Shown piece after piece: positions 609 through 63,006 of a stretch of DNA of 64,000 bases. Below the pieces are notes generated by a model, which ran no database searches, was not told where the DNA came from, and worked only from the letters and a program-made list of their open reading frames with translations. This DNA comes from Malacoraja senta (lineage: Eukaryota). Both the position numbers and the translations under genes were made by a program. The first letter of the stretch is position 1, and every line of letters starts with the position of its first letter. Location of the stretch: assembly GCA_038087875.1 (NCBI GenBank), contig CM075991.1:8620001-8684000 (forward strand). The letters are read 5' to 3'.

Positions 609-932
609 AAACAAGGAACTGGGGATGCTGGCTTTCGACAGAAGACACGGAGTGCTGGAGTAGCTCAACGGGTCAGGCAGCATCTCTGGAAAACGTGGAT
701 AGGCGAAGTTTCGGGTCGAGTCCCTTCTTCGGACTGGGAAGAGGACTTCTTCAAAGTAGGCATACTTTGAGGAGATTTTGCAGTGGAGCAGACTAGCAGT
801 TCGAAGAAGGGTCCCGACCCGGAACGTCACCTATCCTTTTTTCTCCTGAGATGCTGCCTGACCCGCTGAGATACTCCAGCACTTTGTGTCAATCTCTGGT
901 GTAAACCAGCATCTGCAGTTCTTTGCTTCGAC
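609..932. mobile_element. Penelope terminal-repeat (pLTR) fold-back fragment
   Basis: Minus copy (609-735) and plus copy (about 800-932) of GAAGAAGGGTCCCGACCC..GATGCTGCCTGACCCGCTGAG..CCAGCA, the sequence that ends the Penelope at 45573-46042. Confidence 0.7.
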
Positions 933-9701: not shown

Positions 9702-10305
9702 GAGAAGGTGTGGAGGCAAGAAAAGACCAGGACAAATCAGGGCAAGGAACAGGTCAGAATCAGATTTTATTCGCCAAGTATGTTTTACAACATACAAGTA
9801 ATTCCACTGGCCAGGATGACCTCAGGCTGGGTGGTGCCCTGCCTGGTAGGCCAATTGTTGGCTAGGGAAGGGGTGATTGTCTGAAGAAGGGTCCCGACCC
9901 AAAGCGTCACCCATCATTTTTCTCCAGAGATGCTGCCTGACCTGCTGAGTTACTCCAGCACTTTATAAGTTCATAAGTTCCAGGAGCCGAATAAGGCCAT
10001 TCGGCCCATCAAGTTCATTCATGGCTGATCGATCTTTCCCTCCCAACCCTACTCTCCTGCCTTCTTCCCATAACCCCTGACACCCTTACTAATCAATTTT
10101 GTGTCTGTTTTCAGTATAAACCAGCATCTGCAGTTCTATGTTTCTACTGTTAATTACCATGTTCACCAGTAGCATTGTTTCATTGTCCTGGTGCAAGCTG
10201 CCTAATTGAGATGAAGAAGGGTCTCGACTCGAAACATCACCCATTCCTTCCCCCAGAGATGCTGCCTGCCCCACTGAGTTACTCCAGCATTTTGTGTCAA
10301 TCTAA

Positions 10306-10535
10306 AGGGCCTGTCCCACTTTCACGACCTAATTCACGACCTTTTTTACTCGTGGACATTTTTCATCGTGCTGAAAAAACGCCCCGACCTACCTGATGCC
10401 ACGAGTACCTACGACTAGCATCACGACCGACCTACCTACAACCTCCTACGACCTCCTATGACCTCGTGACGAGTATGAGTCAAGGGCAAACTCGGCAGAG
10501 GTTGTGCATTAGGTCGTGAAAGTGGTCCAGGCCCT
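10306..10535. mobile_element. PIF/Harbinger-type MITE
   Basis: TIR AGGGCCTGTCCCACTT / AAGTGGTCCAGGCCCT; flanks TAA/TTA. Confidence 0.8.
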
Positions 10536-10818
10536 TTAGTTGAGATGATAGACACAAAACCCATTTTTGGCTGCTCAAGGGAGCAAGACGAACAACCCTG
10601 GAGATTAGAAGGTGTGGTTTGTGATTCCCAGCCAGCAGTGAGGCTGTGATTTTGGTTGAAAAGCTGTGCAATTAATCTCAATGTACCTGGGTGCAAAGGG
10701 AAGAAAAATTAGTCTTCCTGACGACCGTCTCGTAAACCCCGTTGAGAAGTTCAAATAGGTTTATGAATGATCATTGAACGGTTCCCACCCTGAAGGGTCT
10801 CGACCCGAAACGTTGCCG

Positions 10819-13366: not shown

Positions 13367-14749
13367 CAGCGCTGCTTTATATAATTGCACATAAAGTACT
13401 GTTTAATAACAACTTTTCAGGGGATCCATTCCACATTCTACCCTTTACCCAAAACTACAATTCCTAGTCCCATCAGAAATCCAGAAATCAAAAGGATACA
13501 TCAGCCACGATTGAATGATGGAGTAGATTGATGGGCCGAATGGCATTGTCCTATCTGGGACATATGACAATAAAACACTTGACTCTTGACTCTTGACCCT
13601 ATCACATATGAACCTATAAACTTACGACTAACTGCTGCTGCTCACGTGAAATATCCCCATATTACGCAACCCGTCCTACCATACTGACGCATACACTCCT
13701 GTATCTGCTACATAATGGCCCACCTCCTCTCACTCTGAATAGGCAATGACAGCATGCCCTAGTTTTCAAGGTGTTACTCGCCTGTATTTATTACAAATGC
13801 GGTAACATTATCAAAGCACTTCATGTAATTTCATGCTTCAAAACCTTTCTAGTGTCACCCACGATCCAAAGCACTGTTAAATGCAGGGTTGCTAAGGAGA
13901 CAAGGAGAAATAGTTTGGAAGCTGGCGCGGAGAACTAATGGTGAAAGTTTTAACCCGTTAACTCCCTTCTTTTACATTCCCCTGTGGGGACCTGGCCTCA
14001 ACTCCTGGAGGCCTCGAGAGAGACTGCAGATCAAGGAGGATCCAGACCTAATAGATTGACTGCCCATTTCAACCCTCCCCTCCCCACCCCCCTAACCCCA
14101 CAGATGCTGCCTGGTCAGTTGAGCAGTTGGGTTCCTCAACCCCTTTTGTTTGTTGCCCAAGATCAATGGCTACCCAGATTCAGAGCTGAGGTAGCCATTG
14201 ATTCATTCTAGTCTGTGTGGTGTGGTCCTCCTTCCTAAGGAAGGACGGTCTTGCCCTAAAGTGGATGAAATACAGGTTGCCGGGATCCGTTCATGGGATA
14301 AGATCAGGTTAGGTAGGAGGGCCTCGATCCGAAACGTCACCTATTCCTTTTCTCCAGAGATGCTGCCTGACCCACCGAGTTACTCTGGCTTTTTGTGTAA
14401 GCCAGCATCTGCTGTTCCTTCCAACACAGGTTAGGCAGGGCAGGCTGACTGTCACTTAAGTTTAGTTTAGTCTAGTTTAGTTTAGTGTACCGAGGTACAG
14501 TGAAAAGCTTTTGTTGCGTGCTCACCAGTCAGCGGAAAGACAATACATGATTGTGATACATGTTAAACATTGTCTCAACTGCCTCCTCCACACACCCACT
14601 AACTACCCTTTGCGTGAAAGAGTTAACCCTTAAAGAAACATTTTGCTCCTTTGCTCAAACATTGGAATTTTCTGATTTTGACTTTTGCATAAAGTATGTA
14701 ATAGGATTTTTAAATAAGCGCCACAAATTTTTATTATTATTATTATTAT

Positions 14750-19345: not shown

Positions 19346-20764
19346 GAGAAGCAGAAAGAGTCTAGGATAGAGATATAAAGTAATGAAGGAAAAGAGAGAG
19401 ATATTCAGGTATAGAGAGGGAGAAGACACAGGGAGACAAATAGAGAGAATGAGACAGATGGAAAGAGAGAAACACACAAACAAGCAACTGAGATGGTCAG
19501 AGAGATAGACGGACTGTGGGATTGCAACCAGCACAGCGGGAAAGTAATTATGCCCCTTTGGTTCCAAAGGCATCAAATAAAACAGTGAAAACAACTGTCA
19601 ATCATAACGAGATGAAGCTGGGTCTCAATTACACAAGAACATTGGGATTATTGAATGCTGTTGGCAAGAGCTCAGGCAATATAGAGAAAAAATGACAACA
19701 AAGGAAGGTTACTTCTGATTTCAGGGGGAAATGAATATTTCAAGTGTCTGTCACTGCCCTTTGTGATATTGGTTTGTGCAGTGTGATTAAACCCAGGCCT
19801 AACTCAGAAATAGACAGAAAATAGTGGGAATATCAGAAATAGACAGAAAATAGTGGGAATATATGGTTGCACAAAGGCTCAGAGGGACAGAGTCCTAGAG
19901 AAGACTTTCACCAACTTTCACAATCATGGGCATTCGTTAATCAAGAATACTGTGGGCAAGGCATTTATTTAGGTCAAAAGGACACAAAGTGCTGGGGTAA
20001 CTCAGCAGACCAGGCAGCATCTCGGGAGAACGTGGATATGCGACGTTTCGGATCAGGAGGCTCAAGAAGGGACTGGACCCCCAAAAATGTCACCTGTCCA
20101 TGTTCTCCCATGTTCTCCAGAGATGCAATCTGACCTGCTGAGTTGCTCTGTGGAGTAGACGAAATGTTTAAGAAAGAACTGCAGATGCTTTTCGGGGATA
20201 GGGCCACGGTACAACCTCGAACAAGGATTGTTCGATGTACACTACAAAGAGGCAGGCATAGCTGGGGCCCATGCGCTTGCCCCATAGCTACGCCTTGGAT
20301 TTGGAGAAAATGGGAAAAGTCAAACGAAAAGTTGTTGAGGAGGGTATCGGTAGACGGAGTTACTCCAGCACTTTGTGTTCTTTTGTGTGTGAACCCGCAT
20401 CTGCAGTTCTTTGTTTCTACATTTATTTAGGACAGATTATCAGTGCGCAAAATAGTAGTTCCAGTTTTCGAGAGAAACTGCGTGGAAGCAGGCCCTTTGG
20501 CCCACTGAGTCCATGCTGACCACCGATCATCCATTCACGCAAGTTCTATGTTATTCCACTTTCTTATCCACTCCCCTTACACATTAGGGGCAGTTTTACA
20601 ATTAACCTACAAGCCCGCGTGTCTTCGGGATGTGGGGGGGGGGGGGGGGGAACCTGGAGCAGCTAAAGAATCCCATGCACCAAAGGCAGATTGTGCAAAC
20701 TCCACACCAACAGTACCCAAGGTCAGCATTCAACCTGGGTATGTGGCGCTGAGAGGCAGCAGCT

Positions 20765-23189: not shown

Positions 23190-23382
23190 CGGGTGAGGCA
23201 GCATCTATGGAGCGAAGGAAATAGGCAACGTTTCGGGTCGAAACCCTTCTTCAGACTGAGAAAGGTTTCGACCCGAAACGTTGCCTATTTCCTTCGCTCC
23301 ATAGATGCTGCCTCACCCGCTGAGTTTCTCCAGCATTTTTGTCTCCCTTCGATTTTCCAGCATCTGCAGTTCCTTCTTAAGC
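23190..23382. mobile_element. Fold-back pLTR unit with hammerhead core
   Basis: Inverted arms around 23255; intact minus-strand core at 23227-23254. Confidence 0.75.
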
Positions 23383-26286: not shown

Positions 26287-28556
26287 GTAGATACATGGGA
26301 AGGGTATAATTAGGGGTCGGAGTGGGGGAGAGGGAGTGAGTGAAGGAGAGAGGGGGAGAGGGTGGGAGGAGGGAGAGAGGGGGAGAGAGGAAGAGAGGGA
26401 GAGAGGGAGGGAGAGAGGGAGGAAGAGGTGACAAAAAAGTGGAGAAATAAAAGAGGAAGAGAAAACCAAAGAGGTAAAAAGGGAAATATGGAGAGATTTA
26501 TGAAGGGAATTACGGAATTTAGGACCCAGGCATCTGAAGAACTCTCTACGCGTAGTTTAGTGATTAAATCAGGGTTGTGTAAGAATTTTAGGATTATAGC
26601 AGTCATGGGAACACTTGAGATGATAACAAATGGATCCAAAGAAGGATTCAAAGAGAACGTTGAGAAAGACATAGGTTTAAGGTGAGGGAGGAAAGATTTA
26701 ATAACTCAAGGAGTAACCTCTTCACACAAAGAGTGGTGGGTGTATGGAAAGAGCTGCCAGAGGAGGTCGTTGAGGCAGATACGATTGCAACATTTAAGAA
26801 ACATTTCGACAGGTTTGTGGATAGGACAGGTTTAGAGGGATATGGGCGAAGCACGGACAGGTGGGACTAGTGTAGATGGGACATGTTGGTCGGTGTGGCA
26901 AGTTAGGCCATAGGGCCTACTTCCACGCTGTATGACCCTATGTCTCTATCATCCTTGCCAAAGTCTTTAGTTTGAACAAGTGATTAGATTGAGTTTAATT
27001 TATTGTCACGTGTACCGAGGTTGAGTGAAAAGCTTTTGTTGTGTGCTAACCAGTCAGCGGAAAGAGCATACACGATGACAAACAATTATAAACAATATAG
27101 GGTGGTGAGTATCGATCTCTGGAGACTTGAGGCAGCAAATACATTGGAAATAACAAAGCTGTTATAGGCTGTACTCTGGAGTACAGGCATCCTGTACATG
27201 TAAAGCATTTTAGTGGAATGACTACATTGAGGATAATGGTGGAAGCAACAAACACACAGAAAATTGAAAAGTGCAAAAACAAGCATTTCCAGGAAAATAA
27301 AGGTTCCTATTAAGACCACATGATTCGGGTGCCACTGGGAAATCAGGAACCGCGGTTGAATTCTTGATGGGAATCAATTTGTAAACCTCAATCTGAGGAT
27401 GTCCCACTGCGCTGTACGGCTGATGAGGTCATTTTATAGCAGGTACTTGTGGTCTTTTGGAGTCCGTGGCAGGCAATTAGTACGCAGCAGGATCCCACAA
27501 ACCCCATAAGTGTGAGGGCAGCAATGTGGTGCAGCGGTAGAGTTGCTGCCTTACAGCGTTCGATCCTGTCCACTGTGCCTTCTGTTGTTTAGAAGGCACA
27601 AAATTGTTGGTCCCAATCCCTTCAAGGCAAGGCAGATACTGGTTTACAAAAGAGGACACAAAGTGTTGGAGTAACTCAGTAGGTCAGACTAAAGATCGTC
27701 TTACCGCTGAAGATAGGCAGAAAATGCTGGAGTAACTCAGTGGGTTAGGGAGCATCTCTGGAGAAAAATAAATAGGTCAACACAAAATGCCGGAGTAACT
27801 CAACGGGACAGGCAGCATCTCTGGAGAGAAATAATGGGTGATGTTTCGGGTCGAGACCCTTCTTCAGCCCGAAACGTCACCCATTCCTTCTCTCCAGAGA
27901 CGCCGCCTGTCCCGCTGAGTTACTCCAGCATTTTGTGTCTACCTTCGATTTAACCCAGCATCTGCAGTTCTTTCCTACACAGCTATTCTTCTAATGTTAT
28001 GTTCTTACATGTTGGGGATACAAATGGAGGCTGCAAAAGTAACACGAAAAGGAATAGGGTGACGTTTCCGGTCGAGACCCTTCTTCAGACTGAGCTGAGT
28101 TATTCCAGCACTTAGTACCCATCCTCCATGAACATTTGTTGATACAATGCCAGTGTTGTGAATGGATTACTGGTTGTGAGTAATTAACATGGCTTTACTG
28201 CCAATTAGGAGAGGTTCAATTAAAGTGAGATCTTTACAAGTCATTGTTATAACAATATTTACAGATTACCCCAACGCTAATTGTGTGTCAGGAGTTGTGA
28301 AGCCTCGCGTCTGAAAGGCTGTCCATATCCTTTCCATTTCGGAAGGAATTAGTGTCAATGAAACCCAACCAAAGGAAAAAAAACAACTCAAGTATTGTCA
28401 TCAGTTGGCTCATTCAATCAAGCCTAGTTTATCCAGTCTAGACATCGATTAACGTCTTCTGCACAAACCTTTAAACAGATGTGTTTATATTATATAATTG
28501 TTAGTCATCTTCAACTGGTACTTGGAAGGGGACAAATATGTTTATAAGTCCATAGA

Positions 28557-31347: not shown

Positions 31348-31786
31348 GGGTAGAGTTGCTGCCTTACAGCGAATGCAGCGCCAGAGACCCGGGTTCCATC
31401 CTGACTACGGGTGCCGTCCGTACGGAGTTTGTACGTTCTCCCCGTGACCTGCGTGGGTTTTCTCCGAGATCTTCGGTTTCCTCCCGCACTCCAAAAACGT
31501 ACAGGTTTGTAGGTCCACAAAAGTGCTGGAGAAACTCAGCGGGTGCAGCAGCATCTATGGAGCAAAGGAAATAGGCAACGTTTCGGGCCGAAACCCTTCT
31601 TCACACATTTTCCAGCATCTGCAGTTCCTTCTTTAACAGGTTTGTAGGTCAATTGGTTTGGTAAAAATGTAAAAGTTGTCCCGAGTGGATGTGGGATAGT
31701 GTTGGTGTGCGGGGATCGCTGGTCGACGCGGACCCGGTGGGACGAAGGGCCTGTTTCCGCGCTGCATCTCTAAACTAAACTAAACT
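31348..31786 (+). mobile_element. HE1-type V-SINE with a nested pLTR insertion (31516-31635)
   Basis: SINE split by the 15-bp TSD ACAGGTTTGTAGGTC (31501-31515 / 31636-31650). Confidence 0.85.
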
Positions 31787-35471: not shown

Positions 35472-36393
35472 TTACTCAGCTTTATGTGTCCACCCTGAGG
35501 AGGAGATGGATCAAACATATCGGCAATCTATATATGGAAATAAATGGTTAGTTTAGAGTTACCGCGTGCACACGTTCCCTTTGGTCCCCCGAGTCCGCGC
35601 CGACCTGTGATCCCTGTACACTGTCACTACCCTACTAGCTAGGGATAATTTCCAATTTTACCAAGGCCAAATAACCCACAAATCTGTATGTCTTTGGAGT
35701 GTGGGAGGAAACCTGGTGCACCCGGAGAAAACCCACTGGGTCCGGGGAGAACATACAAACTCCGTACAGGATTGAACCCGGGTCTCTGGCGCTGTCTGGC
35801 AGCAACTCTACTGCTGTTCCATCGTGCCATCGCCCAATGATAGATTTTGACAATCTTGATCATCTCAACATCTGCAATCCGTCAACACTGTCAAACAAGA
35901 CCACCAAAAAGATAGCTTCACAAAACAAGGAGGCGGCTGATCTGATCAGAGAGTTTGTGCTGATCTTCGTCAAAGGGTCAATGACCTTCTTCTGGTCCTT
36001 ATTGATACACATTGTAAATGGATTGAAGTTCGACAGGAAGGATCATGCAATTCAACTGAATGCACAATTGAGGGGCCACAAACAATCTTCCCATCTCTTG
36101 TTCTACCTTAACAATTGACGTCAGATAATGAACCACAATTGAATCCATTCATTTAAATGCTTGATCAGAAGGAATGTAATTAAACATACATAAACTCCCC
36201 AACATTATTTACTTCTAACGATGTAGCAGAAAGGTCTTAGGTATACAAAAATGCTGGAGAAACTCAGCGGGTGCAGCAGCATCTATGGAGCGAAGGAAAT
36301 AGGCAACGTTTCGGGCCAAAACCCTTCTTCAGACCTATTTCCTTCGCTCCATAGATGCTGCCACACCCGCTGAGTTTCTCCAGCACTTTTGTC

Positions 36394-36788
36394 CAAAGAT
36401 CCTATAGCGGAGCAAGATAGACCACTCCTGCTAAATGCAATGGGCTGACGTGTAGTACGCAACGGAGCGGAACATGGGCCTTTTTTTCATCCATTTCCGT
36501 AACCCGAACCGACCCGACTCACAGTGTAATCAACGTTGCGGGGGAACAGTTTGTGTTAATAAATTTAGATTCTGAAAATGAGGAGAAGATTTTGACCAAA
36601 TAACTTTTATTTTTACGAGGATGTTTCCGTAACCGGCTTCCGTCTCCGCACTAGTATCCTATGGGATCTTTGGTGCGGAGACGGAAGCCGGTTACGGAAA
36701 TGGGGCCTTAAATTACCCGTGAATCTGCCCATGACCGTACTACGTCTTTTTCGTCGAGTGGACTATCTTGCTCGCTATAGGATCTTTG
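36394..36788. mobile_element. Non-autonomous DNA transposon (P-like MITE), copy 3
   Basis: TIR CAAAGATCCTATAGCGGAGCAAGATAGACCACTC / GAGTGGACTATCTTGCTCGCTATAGGATCTTTG; TSD CTTTTGTC / CTTTTGTT. Confidence 0.9.
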
Positions 36789-37350
36789 CTTTTGTTGACC
36801 TTCGATTTTCCAGCATCTGCAGTTCCTTCTTAAACTCTTTAGCAGAAAGGTCTTTATGAATTCTCAAGAAAGCTTTGAAAAGGCAGTTCCAAGGTTGTTT
36901 GAATCTAAACTATGAATCATTTCAGATAACTTTCCAATCAATACCACGTCCCATCATAGTATTCACTCCAGAGGAACTATTGACCCATCACAGTGTGACT
37001 GTGCTTGAGTTTATTAAAGGCCAACTTGGTAAAGGAAATGGAGAGAAAGCAGCCGCAGAAATAATGATCACGATTCATACGTTAAGGAGAAGCAAAGGGA
37101 AGCAGATTAAGCAAGATGAGAAAGTGAGAATATGAGGGCAGCCCTAGAAACAGACACTTTGGACCATTTCATCCATGCTAAGTAACTAAGATATCTATCT
37201 GAGCTAGTCCCATCTGCCTGCATTTTGCCTGTATCCCTATGAAACTTTGCATGTACAGGTATCTGTTTAATGTCTTTAAACATTGTAATTGTACCCATCT
37301 CCACTGCTTCCTCTGCAGCGTGTTCCATGTATGCACCACCCGCTGTGTAA

Positions 37351-37931: not shown

Positions 37932-38076
37932 TTAGTCATTCAGCAATGAAACAAGACCTTCGGCCCGACTGACCCATGTCAACCAAAATGCTTCATCCGC
38001 TTTAGCGTTTGGCCCATATCCCTCTAAATCTTTCCAATCTGTGAACCTGTCCAAATGTCTTTTAAATATTGTTATG

Positions 38077-38495
38077 TGACGTTTCAGGTCAAGACCCTTC
38101 TTCAGACTTCAGACCCTTCTTCAGACTTCAGACCCTTCTTCAGACTGGTTATGGATGAGGGAAATCAGAGATATAGACAATGATGTAGAGAGATAAAGAA
38201 CAATGAATGAAAGATATGCAAAAAAGTAACGATGTTAAACGGGGCCATTGTTAGCTGTTTGTTGGGTGAAAACGAGCAGCTAGTGCAAGTTGGGTGGGGG
38301 AGGGATAGAGTAGAGGGAATGCCGGGGCCACCTGAAGTTAGCGAAATCAATTTTCATACCACTGGGCTGTAAGCTGCCCAAGCGAAATATGAGATGCTGT
38401 TCCTCCAATTTGCGTTTAGCCACAACGGAGGAGACCTGGGACAGAAAGGTCTGTGTGGGAATGGGAAGGAGAATTAAAGTGTTTGGCAACCAGGG
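38077..38495 (-). mobile_element. Penelope-like element 3' fragment
   Basis: VAKHFNSPSHSHTDLSV / KRKLEEQHLIFRLGSLQPSGMKIDF (GIY-YIG C-terminus), UTR and pLTR with a 19-bp stutter at 38090-38146. Confidence 0.82.
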
Positions 38496-39063
38496 AGATC
38501 ACTCCCAACATACTTGTGGTATAATTTTGTGGAAATATATAAACAAATAATGAATGGAATATAATGATGTAATTGGATGTGTGACTCCAGCATGTGTTAG
38601 TTGTCTCCAACAGTGGAATTAACACATTAGCTGAAGTCGTGCAAGAAGAGGATTTAGTCACGTGTACCGAGGTACAGTGAAAAGCTTTTGTTGTGTGCTA
38701 ACCAGTCAGCAGAAAGACAATACATGATTACAATCGATCCATTTGCCGTATATAGTTACATGATAAGGCAATAACGTTTAGTGCAAGGTAAAGCCAGTAA
38801 AGTCCGATCAAGGGTAGTCCGAGGGTCACCAAAGAGGTAGATACTAGTTCAGCACTGCTCTCTGGTTGTGGTAGGATGATTCAGTTGCCTGAAAACAGCT
38901 GGGAAGAAACTGTCTCTAAATCTGGTTGTGTGCGTTTTCAAACCTCTACACCAAATAGTGAATGGAATATAATAATGTCATTGCATGTGTGATTCCAACA
39001 GTGGATTTAACACATTAGCTGACGTCATGCAAGAAAAGGATTGCATGTTTAATTCTGCAGCAG

Positions 39064-39290
39064 TGTTTAAGAAGGGACTGCAGATGCTGGAAAATCGAAG
39101 GTAGACAAAACTGCTGCAGAAACTCAACGGGTGCAGCAGCATCTATGGAGCAAAGGAAATAGGCAACGTTTCGGGCCGAAACCTTTTTTCAGACTGAAGA
39201 AGGGTTTCGGTCTGAAGAAGGGTTTCGGCCCGAAACGTTGCCTATTTCCTTCGCTCCATAGATGCTGCTGCACCCGCTGAGTTTCTCCAG
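39064..39290. mobile_element. Fold-back pLTR unit with hammerhead cores on both strands
   Basis: 14-bp TSD TAATTCTGCAGCAG (39050-39063 / 39291-39304); inverted arms. Confidence 0.82.
39212..39239 (+). ncRNA. Minimal hammerhead ribozyme motif (representative copy)
   Basis: CTGAAGA-A-GGGTT-TC-GGCCC-GAAA-CG-TT: CUGANGA and GAAA core boxes, stem II and palindromic stem III; stem I is weak. Confidence 0.6.
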
Positions 39291-39849
39291 TAATTCTGCA
39301 GCAGAATTGGAGAGACATTTTACAGGTGTGCACATGGTGAAATTATACATATGTGTAGGAAGGAACTGCAGATGTTGGTTTAAACCGAAGATAGACACAA
39401 AATACTGGAGCAACTCAGCGGGACAGGCAGCATCTCTGGAGAGAAGGAATGGGTGACGTTTCAGGTCGAAACGCCACCCATTCCTTCTCTCCAGAGATGC
39501 TGCCTGTCCCGCTGAGTTACTCCAGCTTTTTGTTGCAATTATAAACATACTCCTTTGAAACATGGGATCAAAGTAGAAAGGGAGAAAAACTCTCCACGAT
39601 ACATCATTGGCATAATACTTTCACAAGTCAATTGCCTTTGTGCTTAGTGCTAGCTTTGATGTTCGCTCATAATGCATTTCTTCCAACATTATTATTTCTT
39701 GCTTGTGTTTACGGGTTTATACAGCTCTGTGCAACATCACTGTTTGTGGCTGGCTGTTGTGTTGTGTTGACTTTCAAAGAGCCCCTTCTTTCGAAGCACC
39801 ATGCATCCCCATTCTCCAGCGCCGAAGTGTTTATTGATTAAAAGAAAAT

Positions 39850-42094: not shown

Positions 42095-42185
42095 GACATA
42101 AATGCTGGAGAAACTCAGCGGGTGAGGCAGCATCTATGGAGCGAAGGAAATAGGCGACGTTTCGGGTCGGGACCTTTCTTCAGAC
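42095..42185 (-). mobile_element. Solo 91-bp pLTR/hammerhead unit
   Basis: 15-bp TSD TTTCTAAGTCAGGCT (42080-42094 / 42186-42200). Confidence 0.75.
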
Positions 42186-42745
42186 TTTCTAAGTCAGGCT
42201 TGTCAGTCTGAAGAATCAATTCAATTCAATTCAATTCAATTCAACTTTAATGTCATTGCACAAATACTGAGTATGGGTACAACGAAATGCAATTTTGCGT
42301 CAGTCCGTAGTAGTAGTGCAATATAGAAATTTAAAAAAAAATTAAAAAATTAAAATAAATTAAAAAAAAGAGGATACAGAATAATCAAAAATACAGAATA
42401 ATTAACAATGGGGACGGAGGGACCGGAGGAATCTATCGGCGGGACTCCGAGTTCAGCAATGCGACGGTATAATTGTGGAAGCTGTTCCTCATCCTACTGG
42501 TACGAGACCTGAGGCTCCTGTACCGCCTCCCTGATGGGAGGAGGGCAAACAGTCCATAGTTGGGGTGGGGAGGCTGCCTGACCCATTGAGTTACTCTAGC
42601 ACTTTGTGCCTTCGCTAGTAAATCATCATCTGCAGTTCCATATTTCTACTTTCTATGATCCTCTGCATTTATCGGATATTCTTGCCTCCATTGGAGCATG
42701 TTGGCCAAGGACTAAGAACACCTTTTGGCCAGGGTAATTCCACTT

Positions 42746-43455: not shown

Positions 43456-43640
43456 TGGGCCTGTCCCACTTAGGCAATTTTTTTAGGCGACTGCCGGCGA
43501 ATACGACAATGGAATTCACCGAAGTCAGCATCGGCGACAACCTATGTCACCTGGCAACCACCTACAAATCCTGGCGACAATCTACGACTGCACCTACGTC
43601 TGTAGTCGCCTAAAAAATAGGCCTAAGTGGGACAGGCCCT
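43456..43640. mobile_element. PIF/Harbinger-type MITE (185 bp)
   Basis: TTA TSD (43453-43455 / 43641-43643) within a pLTR. Confidence 0.85.
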
Positions 43641-44015: not shown

Positions 44016-45572
44016 TTAATTCAGCCCGGACTCATGTAGGCTTGAAAGGCTTCTTTGATTCTCTGCTTCCTTGAACCTTCTGTGACAAGGTTGTCCAGGC
44101 CAAGCTGTCCATGTGGCACAAACATGCACCATAGGGTTAACACAGCCAAGGCAGGCTCCTTCTGACACAAAGGACCCATTTCAATTTTCACCGTCAATAG
44201 CCATTTCGTAGCGAAAAAGCCGCACATCGTGAATAAAGCCTACAGGCCTCTGAATAAAAATCACTCTGACCTAAACTTCACGTCTATTAATTTCAGCAGC
44301 AATAAGCTTCAGATGAATGCAGGTGTCCATTTGAGCAGCAAGTTTCATGCTGCTTCCCCGAGCAGTGAACAATGACCTGTCCACATATATTTTAGTGCCT
44401 TAGAGCAGGGAAACAGGCCCTTTAGTCCCATCTTGTCTCTGCCAAGCAAGTTGGCACACCGGGCTAGTTCCATTTACCTGCATTTGGCCCATAACCTTGC
44501 CAAACCTTCAGAACGGGTGTCTGGAGATACCACACCAGCCCAGGTGACTATGTGCCTGCCCGCCACTGAAGCAGATCTAAGATTCAAGATTCAAGAGAGT
44601 TTATTGTCATGTGTCCCTGATAGGACAATGAAATTCTTGCTTTGCTTCAGCACAACAGAACATAGTAGGCATTGACTACAAAACAAAATATGTGTCCATA
44701 TACCATTATATAAATATATACACACATCAATAAATAAACTGATAAAGTGCAAATAACAGATAATGGGCTATTAATGTTCAGAGTTTTGTCCGAGCCAAGT
44801 TTAATAGCCTGATGGCTGTGGGGAAGTAGCTATTCCTGAACCTGGTCGTTGCAGTCTTCAGGCTCCTGAACCTTCTACCAGAAGGTAGCAGGGTAATACA
44901 AGCACATATTACAATCACTCCACACTCTTAAATCTCTACTCCTACAGCAACATTTCCTACTACACTGTAAATGGCTTGAGTGTAATCAAGTGGACACAGA
45001 AAGCTGGAGTAACTCAGCGGGACAGGCAGCATCTCTGGAGAGAAGGAATGGGTGACGTTTCGGGCCGAGACCCTTCTTCAGACCGATTGTGATCATGCAT
45101 TGTCTTCAATGCCGACTGGATAGCACGCAACAAAAGTTTTTCACTGTACCTCGGTAATAAACTAAACTGGAATTGAAGCTGAGAGAGTCAGGCTGGAGAT
45201 CCAGTGTGGTCTGTGTGGAGTTTGCATGTTCTTCGTTTCCCCGGGTGCTCAAGTTTCCTCCACTTCCCAAAATCGAGCTGGTTGGTCAGTTAGACGGGCG
45301 GCTGTAAATCGTTCTTAGTGTCAAGGTGCATGGTGAGAATCTGAGGGAAATTGATGGGAATGCTGGGAGAAAGGGTCAAGGGGGAACTAACGGAAGAATA
45401 GGATTGAAGATTCAAGATTCAAGAGAGTTTATTGTCATGTGTCCCAGACAGGACAATGAAATTCTTGCTTTGCTTCAGCACAACAGAATATAGTAGACAT
45501 TGACTACAAAACAGATCAGTGTGTCCATATACCATTATATAATGTACATTATATACAGTGTGTCCATATACC

Positions 45573-46042
45573 GATCTACATCGGTGAGACCAAGCGGAGG
45601 CTTGGCGATCGTTTCGCCGAACACCTCCGGTCGGTCCGCAATAACCAACCTGACCTCCCGGTGGCTCAGCACTTCAACTCCCCCTCCCATTCCGTATCTG
45701 ACCTCTCTGTCCTGGGTCTCCTCCATGGCCACAGCGAGCAACACCGTAAATTGGAGGAAATGCACCTCATATTCCGCTTGGGCAGTCTACATCCTGGGGG
45801 CTTGAACATTGAATTCTCCCAATTCTGCTAGCCCTTGCTGTCCCCTCCCCTTCATCAGCCCTCTGGTTGTCTCCTCCCCTCCCCCAGCCCTCGGGCTCCT
45901 CCTCCACCTTTTTTCCTTTTTTCCTTTCTTCTCCCCACCCCCTATCAGTCTGAAGAAGGGTTTCGGCCCAAAACGTTACCTATTTCCTTCGCTCCATAGA
46001 TGCTGCTGCACCCGCTGAGTTTCTCCAGCATTTTTGTGTACC
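45573..46042 (+). mobile_element. Penelope-like element, 5'-truncated: GIY-YIG endonuclease end, UTR and pLTR
   Basis: Open frame 45577-45831 YIGETKRRLGDRFAEHLRSV..PVAQHFNSPSH..RKLEEMHLIFRLGSLHPGGLNIEF; hammerhead-type core at 45950-45977 with GAAA mutated to AAAA. Confidence 0.9.
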
Positions 46043-46292
46043 TACCATTATATAAATATATACACACATGGATAAAGTTCTGAGTGTTTTCCAATCAGAA
46101 GCCTTGGATGAACTTTGAGATCCGCACTCTTCTGAAGACCAGACACCGGGCATTCATGTCTGATGCTACAGTGGTCTACAAGAAGTCCAGATACGAACCT
46201 TGGTAAGGCCACCATAAAGAATGTTCCGATGGCTAGCATAGACCCAATGGATCGAACGGCCTTCTTCTGTGCGATAAGGAAATATGAAATCG

Positions 46293-50594: not shown

Positions 50595-53500
50595 TATTCA
50601 CAACTCTATGGCTGAAAAAGTTTCCCTCATCTCAGTCCTAAATGGCCTACCCCTTATTCTTAAACTGTGACCCCTGGTTCTGCACGATGTTTTTCCAACA
50701 TGGGGAACATTTTTCCTGCATCTAGCCTGTCCAATCCCTTAAGAATTTCATATGTTTCTCGTATAAACCAAACTGAACTGAACCCGTTAAGGTCAAGCGG
50801 AGTTAGCTGTCGTGGACACAAGTACGGCGGGGGTGCAAGATGAGGGTGAAAATCCTGGCTTGAGGCAGCACCGCAGGCAGGTGGATTTAGACACAAGAAT
50901 CGCACACAAGAAATAAAACAAACTAGACGTAGAATTGACCAAAAGAAAGACCACGCAATAAAAAAAGCAAGACATTCGAGCAGGAAAGTACGGGCTGAGT
51001 TTGGAGTCTGCGGCTGGCGAGCTGGGCCTACGATACGATAAGATAATGATAAGATAGAACGTTATTTATCCCAGGAGTGGAATTGATCTGCCAGCAATCA
51101 TAAAAACACAAAATACATGAAATTAAAGTGGAAAGGATTGGGGATGTGCAAAGATTTGGGGGAGGGTGGGGGGGAGAGTGGGTGGGGGGGGGGAGTCAGT
51201 CTATCCCACGACAGAAGGGGGAGGAGTTGTACAGTTTGATAGCCACAGGGAAGAAGGATCTCCTGTGGCGTTCTGTGCTGCATCTTGGTGGAACCAGTCT
51301 GTTGCTGAAGGTGCTCCTCAGGTTGACCAGTGTGTCATGGTGGAGGACATGGCGCAAGGAGCATAGCCTGCATGGCAGGTCCAGGCCAGCTAGAGGGGCT
51401 AGGCCCCTCTCGCTGAGATACTCCCGACCCCAGGCTCACCGGGATACTAATTAGAAAAATACAACAAGTCCATGGTAGAGCAAGAGGTGCAAGCGACTAG
51501 TGTAGCTGGGACATGTGGGCTGGTGTGGGCAAGTTGGGCCGAAGGGCCTGTTTCCACAATATATCACTCCACGACTATGACTCTAAGAGGTGACCGAGGT
51601 AGGACAACAATGTCACACCTCACAGATGTGGTTATTAAGTGCTGAGCCACATAAAGATGTCAGATTGATGTAACGCTTGGAACAGATGTAATATGGGTCC
51701 CCAGATAATAATTGCTCCTTAATGGATCATTTTGCTGAACACTTGCGCTCAGTCCGCCAAGGCCTGCTGGATCTCTCGGTTACTAAATATTTTAGTTATC
51801 CCCGTACTGACCTTTCTGACCTGGCCTCCTCCATCTGCCAGAGGGAGGCCACATGCAAACTGGAGGAACAGCTCCTCATATTAGGGGCGGCACAGTAATG
51901 CAGCGGTATAGTTGCTGCCTTACAGCGCCGGAGACCCAGGTTTGCTCCTGACTACGGGAGCTGTCTGTGTGGAGTTTGTTTGTTCTCCCCGTGACCGTGT
52001 GGGTTTTCTCTGGCTTGCTGCGGTTTCCTCCCACAGGCGTACAGGTTTGTAGGTTAATTGGCTTTGGTGAAACTGTGCATTGTCCCTCATGTGCAGGATA
52101 GTGTTAGTGTTGGTGGATCACTGGTCTGCACTGCCTCGGTGGGCCATATAACAATATAACCAAATAACAATTACAGCATGGAAACAGCCATCTCGGCCCT
52201 TCTAGTCCGTGCCGATCACTTACTCTCACCTAGTCCAATCTACCTGCACTCAGACCATAACCCTCCATTCCTTTCCCGTCCATATACCTATCCAATTTAT
52301 TTTAAATGATAAATGGAGAACCTGCCTCCACCACTTCCACTGGAAGCTCATTCCACACAGCTACCACTCTCTGAGTAAAGAAGTTCCCCCTCATGTTACC
52401 CCTAAACTTCTGTCCCATGTTTTTCTAAAGCACTGTATCTCTAAAGTCTAAAATTTAATTTCATCTGCCTGCACATGATCCATATCCCTGTGTTCTTTGT
52501 GTTCACAATGGGGGGGGTGCACAGGAGCCAATCGTAGGTTTAATTTAGTTTAGTGCAGAAACAGGCCCTTCGGCCCTCCGATCCCCGCACATTAACACTA
52601 TCCTACACATAGCAGGGACAATGTTTACATTTGTACCAAGCCAATTAACCTACACACCTGTACGTCTTTGGTGTGTGGGAAGGAAACTGAAGATCGCGGA
52701 GAAAAACCCACGCAGGTCACGGGGAGAGCGTGCAAACTGCGTACAGACAGCACGTGCAGTCGGGACTCTACCGCTGCGCCACAATGCTGCCCTGGGTGTA
52801 CGCTCCAGCCCAACCCTGCCGGTCGCTTCTACAGAAAACACTACCAAGGCTGCGCACGGGAGCAGAGAGGGAGAGTGGGGAAGAAAAAGATGGGGCGGTG
52901 GGGGAGAAAGGAATTTTTTTTTTTTGTAGGAAGTTAAATAGAAGATGACCTACAATTATAAAATCCATTGAGGCCAAGTCAATGGATATTATTAAGGCCG
53001 AGATTGACAGATTCTTGATTAGTATGTCCATGTCAGGGGTTATGGGGAGAAGGCAGGTGAATGGAGTTGGGAGGGAGAGATAGATCAGCCATGATTGAAT
53101 GGTGGAGTGGAATCGATGGACCGAATGGTCTAATTCTGCTCTTATCCCTTATGAACTTATGAACTACAACGTCATGCAACCCATGACACTGGCTGGACAT
53201 TTTTTTTTCTTCACATTTTAGTGTTTTTCAGTAAATCATCTGCAACGCACAACTAATATTGGCGTCAGGGAAATAGTGATAAAATTCCTCATGCCATCTG
53301 TAGTTGTAGGCCTGCCAGTTATTTATAACCCCTGCTGTCTGGCCAAGCACATTTGTTGTCATGGTCCTTAAAGGGACTCTACTCCTCTTTCACTTGTAGT
53401 GAGCTGTGCTTAAGATTTTGTGATATAAATTTTTATTAGAAGCAAACATATTACAATGTAGAGTAACATATTATAATAGAAGAAAAAACTTTTCATATAC

Positions 53501-57856: not shown

Positions 57857-58285
57857 TTAGATATAGCTCTTTGGGCTAACGGAATCAAGGGATATGGGGA
57901 GAAAGCAGGAACGGGGTACTGATTCTGGATGATCAGCCATGATCATATTGAATGGTGGTGTTGGCTCAAAGGGCCGAATGGTCTGCTCCTGCACCTATTT
58001 CTAATTTTCTCTGGTTCTTCAGAGATGCTGCCTGACCTGCTGAGTTGCTTCCAGCATTTGTGTCTATCTTCGGTGTAAACCAGCATCTGCAGTTCCCTCT
58101 TACTCCTTTAGGCACTGCACAGGCTAGGTGCAGAGAGTAAATACATCTGACTAATAATGACCCACATCATGTACAGTACTATCAAACAGCATCAATAGCA
58201 ATGGAAGTCAACCCAAATAGACCTGCCTCAGGTCTATATAATTAAAATGAATGCCTGCTTTTGGAGCGGAATCTCATCTGCTCAG

Positions 58286-58485
58286 NNNNNNNNNNNNNNN
58301 NNNNNNNNNNNNNNNNNNNNNNNNNNNNNNNNNNNNNNNNNNNNNNNNNNNNNNNNNNNNNNNNNNNNNNNNNNNNNNNNNNNNNNNNNNNNNNNNNNNN
58401 NNNNNNNNNNNNNNNNNNNNNNNNNNNNNNNNNNNNNNNNNNNNNNNNNNNNNNNNNNNNNNNNNNNNNNNNNNNNNNNNNNNNN
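58286..58485. other. Assembly gap (200 N)
   Basis: Run of exactly 200 N, probably a placeholder for a gap of unknown size. Confidence 0.99.
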
Positions 58486-59261
58486 TGCCCCCAAACCTTC
58501 ACCAGGCAGCAGGAGGGGGACCTTGAGGAATGGTTCCAGCAGAATGCCATCCTGTACGAAAAAGGAAAATGATGGATACAGGGACAGGGACAAGAATGGC
58601 ATGCTTGCCATCCACTGCCCCACATGTGTGCTTAAAGTTCCATCTTTGTCAAAGCCCAGCGCCACTCTCTTCCAGTCATCTGGTGTACTGGGGACAGTCC
58701 ATCACATCATCTCCATTCACCCATTGTGACCTCTTCTTGTGCTTCCTCTTCACCCTTGCTCTTCCCCATCTGCCTTTCTTAAAATGCTGCTGAAGCAAAA
58801 GGGCTGCTGCAAACAGCAGTAGTTGTAATTTTACTAACATCCTCCAAACTAGTTGCCTTCCTTGCTTGCATGGTTCAGAATGATTTTTTTTAAAACCTGG
58901 GAGGCATTTTTTAGTGAGAAAAAAAATGCAGACATGACATCATTTAATCAGGTGACCATTTGAGCTGTAGACACTCGTCACTGGTCGATGTTGGTTTTCG
59001 GTTTGGTCCTCTGAGGTGGAAGGGGGTCGTGCCCATTCACGGATCAATTTGCCAGAGACCATCCTCGAGTAAAACGTACATGGTGGAAGCCAGTCTTTAA
59101 CATAGTCAGAGGAGGTCGAAGGAGGTCTTCTTCATAGTCGAGGGAGGTCGTACGCATAGTCGAGGAAGGTCGTAGGAGGTCGTAGGTCACCGCGACCTTG
59201 ATTTTTTTTTTTTTTAGTCGCCAGATGTTGCGGTGGAGGTCGCCCAAGTGGGACAGGCCCT
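58486..59261 (+). mobile_element. Right part of a larger Harbinger element with a MADF-like remnant
   Basis: Single TIR AAGTGGGACAGGCCCT at 59246-59261 abutting a split SINE; FTRQQEGDLEEWFQQNAILYEK (frameshift) DGYRDRDKN at 58486-58610. Confidence 0.45.
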
Positions 59262-59492: not shown

Positions 59493-59947
59493 AAATTAGA
59501 ATAATATTCTGTTGATTAGTGGACATTTCAGTTCATGAAACAAAGTCAAACTCATTATTGGCTCATTGTTAAAAAGATGTGATGAAAAGTTATGACCCAA
59601 TAGGTTTTGTGCATCTGTACTGTTTGCAAGAGGTTTATTGTTAAAATATTGTGATTAAACACAAGATTTAAAACTGCAATCCGGGAAGCAACATGAACAG
59701 CAAGATTTAAGAATGTACAGATCGAATAATTGAATGCATCAAATGTAAGTACAATTTATATTGAATATATGACGTGGATACATTTAGTACTAACTATGGC
59801 TCTCAAAAGTGTACTGTATTCCTTTCACCGTCATTAACCATCGTCAATTTAAAGATTCCTCCCAAAAAACAAAAATGATTTTCAACCATATCACAAATGA
59901 ATCAAGTGAACTTTCTTTGAAATGGAAAGATAGAAATTGAGCTGCAT

Positions 59948-61420
59948 AAGATTCTACATACCAAGATTCTACATACCAAGATTCTACATACCAAGATTCT
60001 ACATACCAAGATTCTACATACCAAGATTCTACATACCAAGATTCTACATACCAAGATTCTACATACCATCTACATACCAAGATTCTACATACCAAGATTC
60101 TACATACCAAGATTTTACATACCAAGATTCTACATACCAAGATTCTACATACCATCTACATACCAAGATTCTACATACCAAGATTCTACATACCAAGATT
60201 CTACATACCAAGATTTTACATACCATCTACATACCAAGATTCTACATACCATCTACATACCAAGATTCTACATACCAAGATTCTACATACCAAATTTTAC
60301 ATACCATCTACATACCAAGATTCTACATACCATCTACATACCAAGATTCTACATACCAAGATTCTACATACCAAGATTCTACATACCAAGATTTTACATA
60401 CCATCTACATACCAAGATTCTACATACCATCTACATACCAAGATTCTACATACCAAGATTCTACATACCAAGATTCTACATACCAAGATTTTACATACCA
60501 AGATTCTACATACCAAGATTCTACATACCATCTACATACCAAGATTCTACATACCAAGATTCTACATACCAAGATTCTACATACCAAGATTTTACATACC
60601 AAGATTCTACATACCAAGATTCTACATACCATCTACATACCAAGATTCTACATACCAAGATTCTACATACCAAGATTCTACATACCAAGATTCTACATAC
60701 CAAGAATTCTACATACCAAGATTTTACATACCAAGATTCTACATACCAAGATTCTACATACCAGATTCTACATACCATCTACATACCAAGATTCTACATA
60801 CCAAGATTCTACATACCAAGATTCTACATACCAAGATTCTACATACCAAGATTCTACATACCATCTACATACCAAGATTCTACATACCAAGATTCTACAT
60901 ACCAAGATTCTACATACCAAGATTCTACATACCAAGATTCTACATACCAAGATTCTACATACCAAGATTTTACATACCAAGATTCTACATACCAAGATTC
61001 TACATACCAAGATTCTACATACCATCTACATACCAAGATTCTACATACCAAGATTCTACATACCAAGATTCTACATACCAAGATTCTACATACAAAGATT
61101 CTACATACCAAGATTTTACAATACCAAGATTCTACATACCAAGATTCTACATACCAAGATTCTACATACCATCTACATACCAAGATTCTACATACCAAGA
61201 TTCTACATACCAAGATTCCACATACCAAGATTCTACATACCAAGATTCTACATACCATCTACATACCAAGATTCTACATACCAAGATTCTACATACCATC
61301 TACATACCAAGATTCTACATACCAAGATTCTACATACCAAGATTCTACATACCAAGATTCTACATACCAAGATTCTACATACCAAGATTCTACATACCAA
61401 GATTCTACATACCAAGATTC
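59948..61420 (+). repeat. 15-bp tandem repeat (AAGATTCTACATACC)n with 11-bp variants
   Basis: About 100 near-perfect units; explains the 534-aa ORF. Confidence 0.97.
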
Positions 61421-61614
61421 GGAGATCATAGTTGCTCCACAGTGGACAATATTCCAAGCTCATTGGCTTTACAAGAAGGTCAGAATCAAGATGGTCTGGC
61501 CACCAGTGTTTGCTCAAATATCACAGGAGCTTGCTGGCTGAAAAGGAAAAGGGAGAAATTTCATGAGGTCATAAGTGATGAGTAGAATTAGGCCATTCGG
61601 CCATCGCCCACTTG

Positions 61615-62656
<1,042 letters not shown>

Positions 62657-63006
62657 GAAATGGAGGTGGTGAGAGATAGTGAGGATGAAGGAATGCAGAG
62701 TGGTGGATGAGGGGGCGAGGAGTGGGGAGGGAAAGTGGGGAGAGGAAGGGAAGGAGTGGAGAGAGGAGGGAGGGAGGGAGTGGGAGAGAGTGGATGGAGA
62801 GAATGGGTAGGGAGGGTGTGAAAGGGAGTGCCGATGAGTGACCAAATTCAGGCAGATGCACATACACATGAAGGGGAAGGAGAGGCAGAGGCAGGTTGGT
62901 AGTGATGGAGAATATATAGTTCAGTCTTTTGGTCGAAAGGAGGTTTCAGGGCAATAACCATTAAATGAGCAGAAGCAACAATAGGGGGAAGACAAATCCC
63001 CTGGCT

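What the first reader, a model, noticed from the sequence alone, without database searches (positions are those of the whole stretch)
39050..39304. Tiny hammerhead-bearing units insert on their own, often as fold-backs, with 14-15 bp TSDs
Seen: four clean insertions consisting only of pLTR sequence: 31516-31635 (15-bp TSD), 36239-36839 (15-bp TSD TAGCAGAAAGGTCTT, later hit by the MITE), 39064-39290 (14-bp TSD) and 42095-42185 (15-bp TSD). Three have inverted arms, usually switching strand close to the hammerhead core. Further fold-backs occur at 609-932, 23190-23382, 27780-27980 and 39351-39533. Inference: either a SINE-like or retrozyme-like minimal RNA mobilised by Penelope RT, or stereotyped abortive Penelope integration with an inverted 5' end. 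Either way the locus is dense in dsRNA hairpins with ribozyme cores on both strands.
Basis: partly seen in the sequence, partly recalled or inferred. Interest (0 to 1): 0.72.

Follow-up and report, generated by a model that had tools for sequence, protein, structure and literature searches.

The report
Penelope leader stubs, twin-primed, fixed stop
These 90-230 bp hammerhead-bearing inserts are end pieces of a Penelope-like retrotransposon in a skate-like genome, a known kind of debris, but their 5' ends pile up at one spot, which likely marks the start of the element's RNA and suggests both cut DNA ends were used as primers.

Summary
All four insertions have exact 15/15/14/15-bp TSDs (0 of 642 control pairings score as high), and the other fold-backs exist. 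The unit is the terminal repeat (pLTR) of a Neptune/Nematis-type Penelope-like element (PLE). A longer copy (45573-46036) joins a GIY-YIG C-terminus to the same unit, and five of six arms from the four insertions share a clade with it, so there is no sign of a separate SINE or retrozyme lineage. Head-to-head arms, a one-sided 30-40 bp tail and solo pLTRs are published PLE traits. What is not random: 24 of 31 arms that reach the 5' edge of the hammerhead core stop within 7 nt of it (3% expected). A public run's contigs show their main long heterogeneous 5' junction at the same base. That base is 30 nt upstream of the predicted ribozyme cut; the cut itself is only a minor stop (4 of 42). Most likely both 3' overhangs prime inside the RNA leader, run off at the RNA's 5' end and are joined. 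Ordinary class, useful mechanistic footprint. RNA start, cleavage and transcription were not shown.

The parts
39050..39063 (.). Left TSD (14 bp) of the focal insertion
   Evidence: exact repeat of 39291-39304
39064..39194 (-). Long arm: pLTR unit +1..+133 including the 30-40 bp tail; hammerhead core with G8 changed to A
39189..39197 (.). Odd palindrome at the unit's 5' edge (TCAG-N-CTGA), centre of the inversion
   Evidence: sequence; same centre in 23190-23382
39194..39209 (+). Partial extra copy (+3..+18) before a restart at +1
   Evidence: sequence
39210..39290 (+). Short arm +1..+81; intact minimal hammerhead core (CUGANGA 39212-39218, GAAA 39232-39235, predicted cut after 39239)
39291..39304 (.). 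Right TSD (14 bp)
31516..31635 (.). Inverted insertion of two non-overlapping pieces: minus arm +1..+90, plus arm about +101..+133 (tail); 15-bp TSD
36239..36839 (.). Fold-back: minus arm +1..+97, plus arm starting at the predicted ribozyme cut (+31..+34, with microhomology) and ending at the tail; 15-bp TSD; MITE at 36394-36788
42095..42185 (-). Single arm, 5' end at 0/+1 abutting the 15-bp TSD; a second pLTR start lies at about 42203-42215 on +
45573..46036 (+). Longer 5'-truncated copy of the same young subfamily: GIY-YIG C-terminus (45565-45828), pyrimidine-rich 3' UTR, unit from 45948; about 13-bp TSD and 30 bp of target-derived filler
23190..23382 (.). Symmetric fold-back centred on the 5' palindrome; arms 98% alike; no TSD found
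27623..27980 (.). Composite: tandem minus arms (one restarting at +31, the predicted cut, with microhomology) plus an inverted long arm from +20
39351..39533 (.). Fold-back of an older subfamily centred in stem II (+13..+22); 13-bp TSD with 2 mismatches
609..932 (.). Head-to-head pair, arms 83% alike; spacer 737-799 (-) carries the sequence downstream of the tail with a likely ORF start (MPTLKK)
38074..38500 (-). Longer copy of an older subfamily: GIY-YIG C-terminus, UTR, and two reiterated restarts at +1 (38125, 38106)
14315..14426 (+). Single long arm from about +7..+10 with a 13-bp TSD (1 mismatch)

Best explanation
The inserts are pieces of a Penelope-like element's terminal repeat, likely made when the element's enzyme uses both ends of its staggered DNA cut as primers inside the RNA leader, and the short copies likely run off at the RNA's 5' end and are then joined head to head. 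SHOWN here: the unit is the 3' end of a GIY-YIG PLE; TSDs are 13-15 bp; both arms point their 3' ends at the TSDs; 3' ends fall in two groups (about +85..+104 and +125..+133); 5' ends pile up at -2..+4. SHOWN elsewhere (PMC11167929, in vitro, anole PLE): the protein cuts and extends both strands and starts reverse transcription at two internal sites whose spacing is the tail. INFERRED: a 13-15 nt staggered cut with 3' overhangs; one overhang primes at the long site and one at the short site; the copy primed is the leader copy of the pLTR (likely ATG about +168); the stop at +1 is the transcript's start, at an initiator-like TCAGT; the two cDNA ends anneal through the 5' palindrome or short microhomologies. 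If one primer fails, a single arm results; jumps from the 5' end give the small tandem restarts. The ribozyme is predicted to be mostly a passenger, with cleaved RNA an occasional template.
For: ORF-bearing copy of the same subfamily: 86% to a Leucoraja protein and 49% to a full-length RT+GIY-YIG protein. It sits on a zero-length branch among five of the six arms of the four insertions (94/88), and each older group also holds a UTR-bearing copy. 3' ends: 22 of 54 arms at +85..+104, 17 at +125..+133. By eye, 8 of 12 head-to-head pairs have one long and one short arm, as described for PLEs (PMC8557442, passages). 5' ends: 24 of 31 stop in 7 nt against 3.3% expected, binomial p about 7e-30. In run X1 (85,282 contigs laid) the only long, heterogeneous 5'-side loose end among the six rows shown is at 45948 = +1 (121 contigs, median 242 nt, agreement 0.35, A-rich rather than pyrimidine-rich); 5 of 9 listed joints with from>to land at 45944-45947. 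Restarts at +1 in the window: 38106, 38125, 39210, 43658. Asymmetric junctions (+1/+101, +1/+31, +3/+20, +3/+70, -2/+67) cannot come from one snap-back hairpin. In 6 of 9 pairs at least one arm is closer to another copy than to its partner and neither arm is closest to its partner, or nearly so. Downstream of the tail the window encodes MPTLKK; homologous full-length ORFs start MPTLRT or contain MPTLKS near the N-terminus. TSD-bounded single arms ending at or near +1: 42095, 10212 (by eye) and marginally 44987.
Against: No RNA 5' end was observed: all runs were contigs, and the two RNA-like runs gave either nothing (X22) or loose ends split between 45944 and 45949 (X15). An initiator start would be the A at position 0, whereas the X1 peak is at +1; the X1 junction consensus also shows no extra G. 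The same site reads equally well as a 3' splice site (pyrimidine tract + CAG in the long copies), and D. virilis Penelope has an intron ending at helix I (PMC4209133). 18 of 26 insertions had no detectable TSD, so some single arms may be fold-backs that lost an arm. Symmetric fold-backs (23190, arms 98% alike) fit snap-back as well. The arm-versus-neighbour comparison is biased by taking the best of many. The read laying tables are truncated (597 loose-end rows not shown), and conserved units from other subfamilies inflate depth and end counts there. Arm classes were partly assigned by eye. The ORF-start link rests on five residues and a 12-nt overlap.
Confidence: 0.6

Rival explanations
1. 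Same PLE origin, but the stop at +1 is not an RNA 5' end: reverse transcriptase stalls or snaps back at the TCAG-N-CTGA palindrome or at the splice-acceptor / pyrimidine-tract border on a full-length RNA, and single arms are hairpins that later lost an arm.
For: Palindrome is the centre of 23190-23382 and 39064-39290; 39351-39533 is centred on another small palindrome; palindromic inverted junctions and self-priming were proposed in PMC3846280 (Discussion read); pyrimidine tract + CAG precede the unit in the long copies; 18 of 26 insertions lack a TSD.
Against: The palindrome gives only a 3-4 bp stem. Non-overlapping arms (31516) and asymmetric junctions need two priming events. TSD-bounded single arms exist (42095, 14312, 10212). 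Restarts at +1 occur without inversion. No shared upstream exon is seen (agreement 0.35).
Confidence: 0.22
2. Solo units are a self-renewing non-autonomous family: each carries an internal promoter at its 5' edge and the internal priming sites at its 3' edge, so its read-through transcript is recopied as the same 90-133 nt unit by PLE protein in trans.
For: Fixed 5' and 3' ends; short arms outnumber UTR-bearing ones 24 to 7; unit depth is 4-10 times UTR depth in X1; D. virilis Penelope has an internal TATA-less promoter (PMC2377424, passages); pLTRs sufficed for trans-mobilisation in A. vaga (PMC3846280, passages).
Against: No separate clade or diagnostic mutation: the tiny arms group with the ORF-bearing copy (90 nt gives little power). 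Each insertion has its own architecture, whereas a SINE copies one master. No promoter activity was tested.
Confidence: 0.12
3. The units are non-LTR retrozymes: hammerhead-cut monomer or circular RNAs reverse-transcribed and inserted.
For: A minimal hammerhead core is present (11 intact copies); 4 of 42 arms start at +30..+32 (p 0.001, or 0.01 without one weak hit); X1 has a joint 46038 to 45979 with one G between, a restart at the cut; animal retrozymes derive from pLTRs (bioRxiv 10.64898/2026.07.22.740005).
Against: No head-to-tail arrays of whole units. The main 5' end is 30 nt upstream of the cut. No circular permutation at the cut. The core is the minimal, dimer-dependent type with a 2-bp helix I, not the canonical type I of retrozymes (PMC7229834, passages). 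The cut-site window was chosen after seeing the data, and two of the cases have microhomology.
Confidence: 0.04
4. Plain short tail of random 5' truncation; the pile-up is an end-of-homology artefact because the upstream UTR diverges between subfamilies.
For: PLE copies are typically 5'-truncated (PMC8557442, PMC8969392, passages); UTRs do differ between subfamilies; my model ends at -2, so 7 arms are censored there.
Against: The native upstream sequence is 72-95% pyrimidine in the long copies and below 70% in all 24 stopped arms. TSDs, inverted partner arms or restarts abut +1 directly in many cases. X1 loose ends at +1 are A-rich and heterogeneous.
Confidence: 0.02

Closest known systems
Canonical EN+ Penelope-like element insertions, Neptune/Nematis type (Craig et al. 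2021 PMC8557442; Arkhipova et al. 2013 PMC3846280)
   Same: C-terminal GIY-YIG, CX2-5CxxC linker in close homologues, pLTR with hammerhead, inverted 5'-truncated copy head to head, 30-40 bp tail on one end, palindrome at the inverted junction, solo pLTRs, TSDs.
   Different: Here the whole insertion is often only the two pLTR arms; TSDs are 13-15 bp against 8-10 bp in A. vaga; a single-base-scale 5' stop at the hammerhead's 5' edge was not found described in my searches; the unit appears to lie wholly upstream of the ATG.
Anolis Poseidon PLE in vitro (Frangieh et al. 2024 PMC11167929)
   Same: Both strands cut and extended; two internal RT start sites bounding the tail; hammerhead cleavage not needed for insertion; AT-rich cut sites.
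   Different: Different clade; there the ORF starts in stem II and priming is within the ORF; no reads began or ended at the ribozyme cut there, while a few junctions here do.
[quoted passage not shown]
   Same: Core with extra base before stem II, palindromic helix-III remnant, mostly single dispersed motifs, some pairs on opposite strands 100-700 bp apart, read as truncated PLEs.
   Different: Stem II is 4 bp and helix I only 2 bp in genomic context; activity untested here.
L1 twin priming
   Same: Second nick primes on RNA and gives an inverted piece; non-overlapping arms as in 31516-31635.
   Different: Priming sites are two fixed internal sites rather than poly(A) plus a random site, and arms usually overlap, giving hairpins.
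Metazoan non-LTR retrozymes (PMC7229834; bioRxiv 10.64898/2026.07.22.740005)
   Same: Short, non-coding, hammerhead-bearing, pLTR-related.
   Different: Those are head-to-tail tandem repeats, in the well-studied cases with canonical type I hammerheads and circular RNAs; these are single or head-to-head and start upstream of the cut.

Membership tests
EN+ Penelope-like element (Neptune/Nematis type) | Unit is the terminal repeat of an element with a C-terminal GIY-YIG endonuclease | tested here: met
   45565-45828 and 38331-38490 match RT+GIY-YIG proteins and run through a UTR into the unit
EN+ Penelope-like element (Neptune/Nematis type) | CX2-5CxxC linker between RT and EN | tested here: inconclusive
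   Present in the close homologues (P0003, P0022-P0061), but that part is not in the window; no RT tree was built, so Neptune versus Nematis is not resolved
EN+ Penelope-like element (Neptune/Nematis type) | Inverted 5'-truncated copy and optional 30-40 bp tail on one end | tested here: met
   Two 3'-end groups about 35 nt apart; 8 of 12 head-to-head pairs long+short by eye
EN+ Penelope-like element (Neptune/Nematis type) | pLTR repeated at both ends of a full-length ORF | tested here: inconclusive
   No full-length copy in the window and no genome held; indirect link from tail to MPTLKK
EN+ Penelope-like element (Neptune/Nematis type) | Variable-length TSD | tested here: met
   13-15 bp in 7 of 26 insertions
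Minimal type I hammerhead (min-HHR) | CUGANGA / GAAA / UH core, extra base before stem II, G-C opening pair, palindromic helix-III remnant | tested here: met
   11 copies match the strict pattern; alignment
Minimal type I hammerhead (min-HHR) | Covariation in stems I and II | tested here: inconclusive
   85% of cells paired, only one-sided U-A/U-G changes, not above shuffles; no Rfam hammerhead hit
Minimal type I hammerhead (min-HHR) | Self-cleavage as a dimer | not testable with these tools
   needs an in vitro assay
Non-LTR retrozyme | Head-to-tail tandem units, each with a hammerhead | tested here: not met
   No array of whole units among 63 arms; only partial restarts
Non-LTR retrozyme | Unit boundaries set by ribozyme cleavage | tested here: not met
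   24 arms stop at -2..+4, 4 at +30..+32
Non-LTR retrozyme | Expressed as circular RNA | not testable with these tools
   only contigs were available
SINE-like non-autonomous family | Own lineage or master copy distinct from the autonomous partner | tested here: not met
   Tiny arms group with the ORF-bearing copy; low power at 90 nt
SINE-like non-autonomous family | Own internal promoter | not testable with these tools
   initiator-like TCAGT only (consensus recalled); needs a reporter or CAGE

The most novel reading that the evidence does not exclude
The solo pLTR is a closed, self-renewing 90-133 nt retroelement. An internal Pol II start defines its 5' end and PLE internal priming defines its 3' end, so it needs no terminator, poly(A) or ribozyme cut. 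Twin priming by a PLE dimer turns it into thousands of hairpin insertions across cartilaginous-fish genomes, and a minority of junctions record hammerhead cleavage in vivo.
Probability: 0.15. Interest if true: 0.68.

Novelty: new member of a known kind. Interest (0 to 1): 0.38.

Why it matters
How PLEs make their inverted, tailed insertions is still open: self-priming on an antisense template was proposed in 2013, and two internal start sites were shown in vitro in 2024. These very short, young, TSD-bounded copies are a clean read-out of both ends of the reaction. They favour two primers on sense RNA and point to a fixed 5' stop, which makes the model testable with one genome scan and one 5'-end sequencing run. 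Practically, repeat annotators should treat these hairpins as PLE debris, not as MITEs, miRNA precursors (they draw sub-threshold miRNA hits) or retrozymes.

Tried and rejected
No whole genome was held, so no genome-wide histogram could be made. Pattern scans of viral, metagenome and prokaryote collections found no copies. Rfam gave no hammerhead at gathering or at E<=10 in 39000-39600 (only generic hairpin hits below threshold). Single arms fold no better than shuffles (z -0.25 to 0.45). Stem covariation was not above shuffles. Run X22 laid nothing, which is no evidence. Four X1 'skip' joints landing at 45944-45947 were discounted as probably divergent UTRs. A cap-derived extra G was considered: by eye 8 of 12 non-A bases at position 0 are G in the window, but the X1 junction consensus does not show it, so it is not used. 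Host-exon capture at the CAG acceptor was considered and not favoured: TSDs abut the unit directly in 42095 and there is no A bias at the second-last upstream base. Pfam found no convincing host exon in 77 non-repeat ORFs (one sub-threshold hit), so whether the locus is intronic is unknown. Lunse et al. 2016 was not held.

Full report
Observation. In an anchored search of 26 insertions these four scored 14-15, while none of 642 mismatched flank pairs reached 9. Three more insertions had 13-16 bp repeats with one or two mismatches (14312, 39352, 45573), one was marginal (44987, score reached by 3% of controls), and 18 had none. A further 13-bp TSD with one mismatch is visible by eye at 10202 once a nested MITE is set aside. 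The extra fold-backs are real. 31516-31635 is inverted but not a hairpin, and 42095-42185 has a second pLTR start 17 bp away, so it may be less clean than stated.

What the unit is. A profile built from 16 window copies finds 63 arms, 32 on + and 31 on -, covering 5,038 bp (7.9%). I number the unit from the G of GTCTGA as +1. At 45573-46036 the same unit ends a longer insert: 88 codons of a GIY-YIG C-terminus, a stop, about 120 nt of pyrimidine-rich UTR, then the unit. That peptide is 86% identical to a Leucoraja erinacea protein and 49% to a 904-aa RT+GIY-YIG protein. Homologues carry the CX2-5CxxC linker that marks Neptune and Nematis PLEs (PMC8557442, passages). A second GIY-YIG end runs into an older unit at 38074-38500, and RT and EN scraps lie at 20195-20360 and 51719-51895. 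In a tree of 26 arms (of 63; chosen for length and to span subfamilies), five of the six arms from the four insertions form a group with the ORF-bearing copy (94/88), the sixth is in the same starred subfamily, and both older groups include UTR-bearing copies. The sequence that follows the tail at 20148-20162 overlaps the spacer of 609-932, which encodes MPTLKK; two full-length homologues begin MPTLRT and one has MPTLKS near its start. This puts the likely ATG near +168, so the unit would also be the 5' leader of the mRNA. That link is inferred from five residues and a short overlap.

The hammerhead. The core CUGANGA, an extra A, a 4-bp stem II, GAAA and the palindromic ACGU remnant match the minimal hammerhead described for PLE pLTRs (PMC4209133, parts 1-2 of 4 read). 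Eleven copies keep the strict pattern. The predicted cut is after +30. Rfam finds nothing, pairing is 85% but not above shuffles, and helix I is only 2 bp. The identification therefore rests on motif and position; activity is untested.

Breakpoints. Of 63 arms, 9 scoring under 20 bits were dropped, leaving 54. 3' ends: 22 at +85..+104 and 17 at +125..+133. The gap is the 30-40 bp tail of PLEs, which in the anole element lies between two internal RT start sites (PMC11167929, parts 1-2 of 4 read). For 5' ends I set aside 8 arms cut by younger repeats and 2 duplicate fold-back centres, and added 2 long copies that were not separate rows. Then 24 stop at -2..+4, 15 stop inside the unit and 7 run on into the UTR. 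Of 31 arms reaching +4, 24 stop within 7 nt, against 3.3% expected from the stop rate inside the unit (p about 7e-30). Classes were partly set by eye and -2 is the model's edge. Four of 42 arms start at +30..+32 (p 0.001; 0.01 without one weak hit); this window was chosen after seeing the data. Independent of the window's own copies, though possibly from the same sample, run X1 laid 85,282 contigs on 45540-46070. Among its six loose-end rows shown, the only long heterogeneous 5'-side row is at 45948 = +1 (121 contigs, median 242 nt, agreement 0.35, A-rich). Five of nine listed joints with from>to land at 45944-45947, and one restarts at the predicted cut. The tables are truncated (597 loose-end rows hidden), so this is not a full histogram.

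Mechanism. In every head-to-head insert both arms point their 3' ends at the TSDs. That is the geometry expected if a staggered cut leaves 13-15 nt 3' overhangs and each primes cDNA on sense RNA (inference). The anole protein does cut and extend both strands and is predicted to be a dimer (PMC11167929). Eight of 12 evaluable pairs have one long and one short arm. Asymmetric junctions (+1/+101, +1/+31, +3/+20, +3/+70, -2/+67) need two priming events; the symmetric ones fit two cDNAs annealing through the 5' palindrome, and fit snap-back equally. Short-site junctions often share a few bases with the target end, which could explain their spread (by eye). [quoted passage not shown] Against this, the X1 peak is one base off the expected A, no RNA end was seen, and the site also looks like a splice acceptor, with a precedent in D. 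virilis. I put 0.85 on abortive PLE integration in general and 0.6 on the full twin-priming plus run-off model.

Comparison with what is known. Inverted 5'-truncated copies and one-sided tails (PMC8557442, PMC8969392; passages), palindromic inverted junctions, solo pLTRs and 8-10 bp TSDs (PMC3846280; passages and Discussion), and single or opposite-strand minimal hammerheads from truncated PLEs (PMC4209133) are all in print. Non-LTR retrozymes are pLTR-derived but tandem (bioRxiv 10.64898/2026.07.22.740005, parts 1-3 of 5; PMC7229834 and PMC6765202, passages); that definition is not met. I found no description of a base-scale 5' stop at the hammerhead edge or of twin priming for PLEs in eight searches. 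The library lacks most subscription papers, including Arkhipova 2006 and Lunse 2016, and I read no supplements; any of these could describe it. Two unchecked earlier notes from other genomes reached the same 'ordinary PLE' reading; they are not independent evidence.

Verdict. Real feature, new member of a known kind. The SINE or retrozyme reading is not supported and the random-truncation null is rejected. Interest 0.38, for the testable footprint of the integration mechanism.

Noticed in passing
window 38074-38144 (-): 19-bp period reiteration with two restarts exactly at +1 before the copy continues into the UTR; looks like repeated realignment at a template end.
   Followed up: partly
window 20163-20422: Head-to-head insert in which a 24-nt tail is fused directly to an internal RT-coding fragment, with an arm from another subfamily on the other side; suggests template jumping within the PLE RNA.
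   Followed up: partly
window 45530-45573: About 30 bp of target-derived filler (a local duplication) at the 5' junction of the long copy, which sits in the tail region of another repeat; an uninterrupted homologue is at 44579-44750.
   Followed up: partly
window 36394-36788: MITE with terminal inverted repeats, an 8-bp TSD with one mismatch (hAT-like, recalled) and an internal 28-bp perfect hairpin; a fragment of the same family is at about 950-990.
   Followed up: no
window 10305-10536, 35003 onward, 43456-43640: A second MITE family with TA target duplication has hit pLTR arms three times, twice at the same TTA near +75.
   Followed up: no
window 42203-42643: pLTR start at -2 cut by a (CAATT)n-tailed repeat, with a possible remainder at 42570-42643; relation to the 42095 arm unresolved.
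   Followed up: partly
window 59921-62945: Long tandem and low-complexity arrays that give spurious ORFs of 300-550 aa; an N gap lies near 58285-58490.
   Followed up: no
TSD edges of six insertions: Bases just 3' of the inferred nicks are mostly A/T-rich with an early AT dinucleotide, loosely like the ATT preference of the anole PLE; boundaries are uncertain by microhomology and no test was run.
   Followed up: no
P0004 C-terminus: A Stegostoma gene model reads through the PLE UTR into a translated hammerhead region, hinting that the UTR-core junction is conserved in sharks.
   Followed up: no
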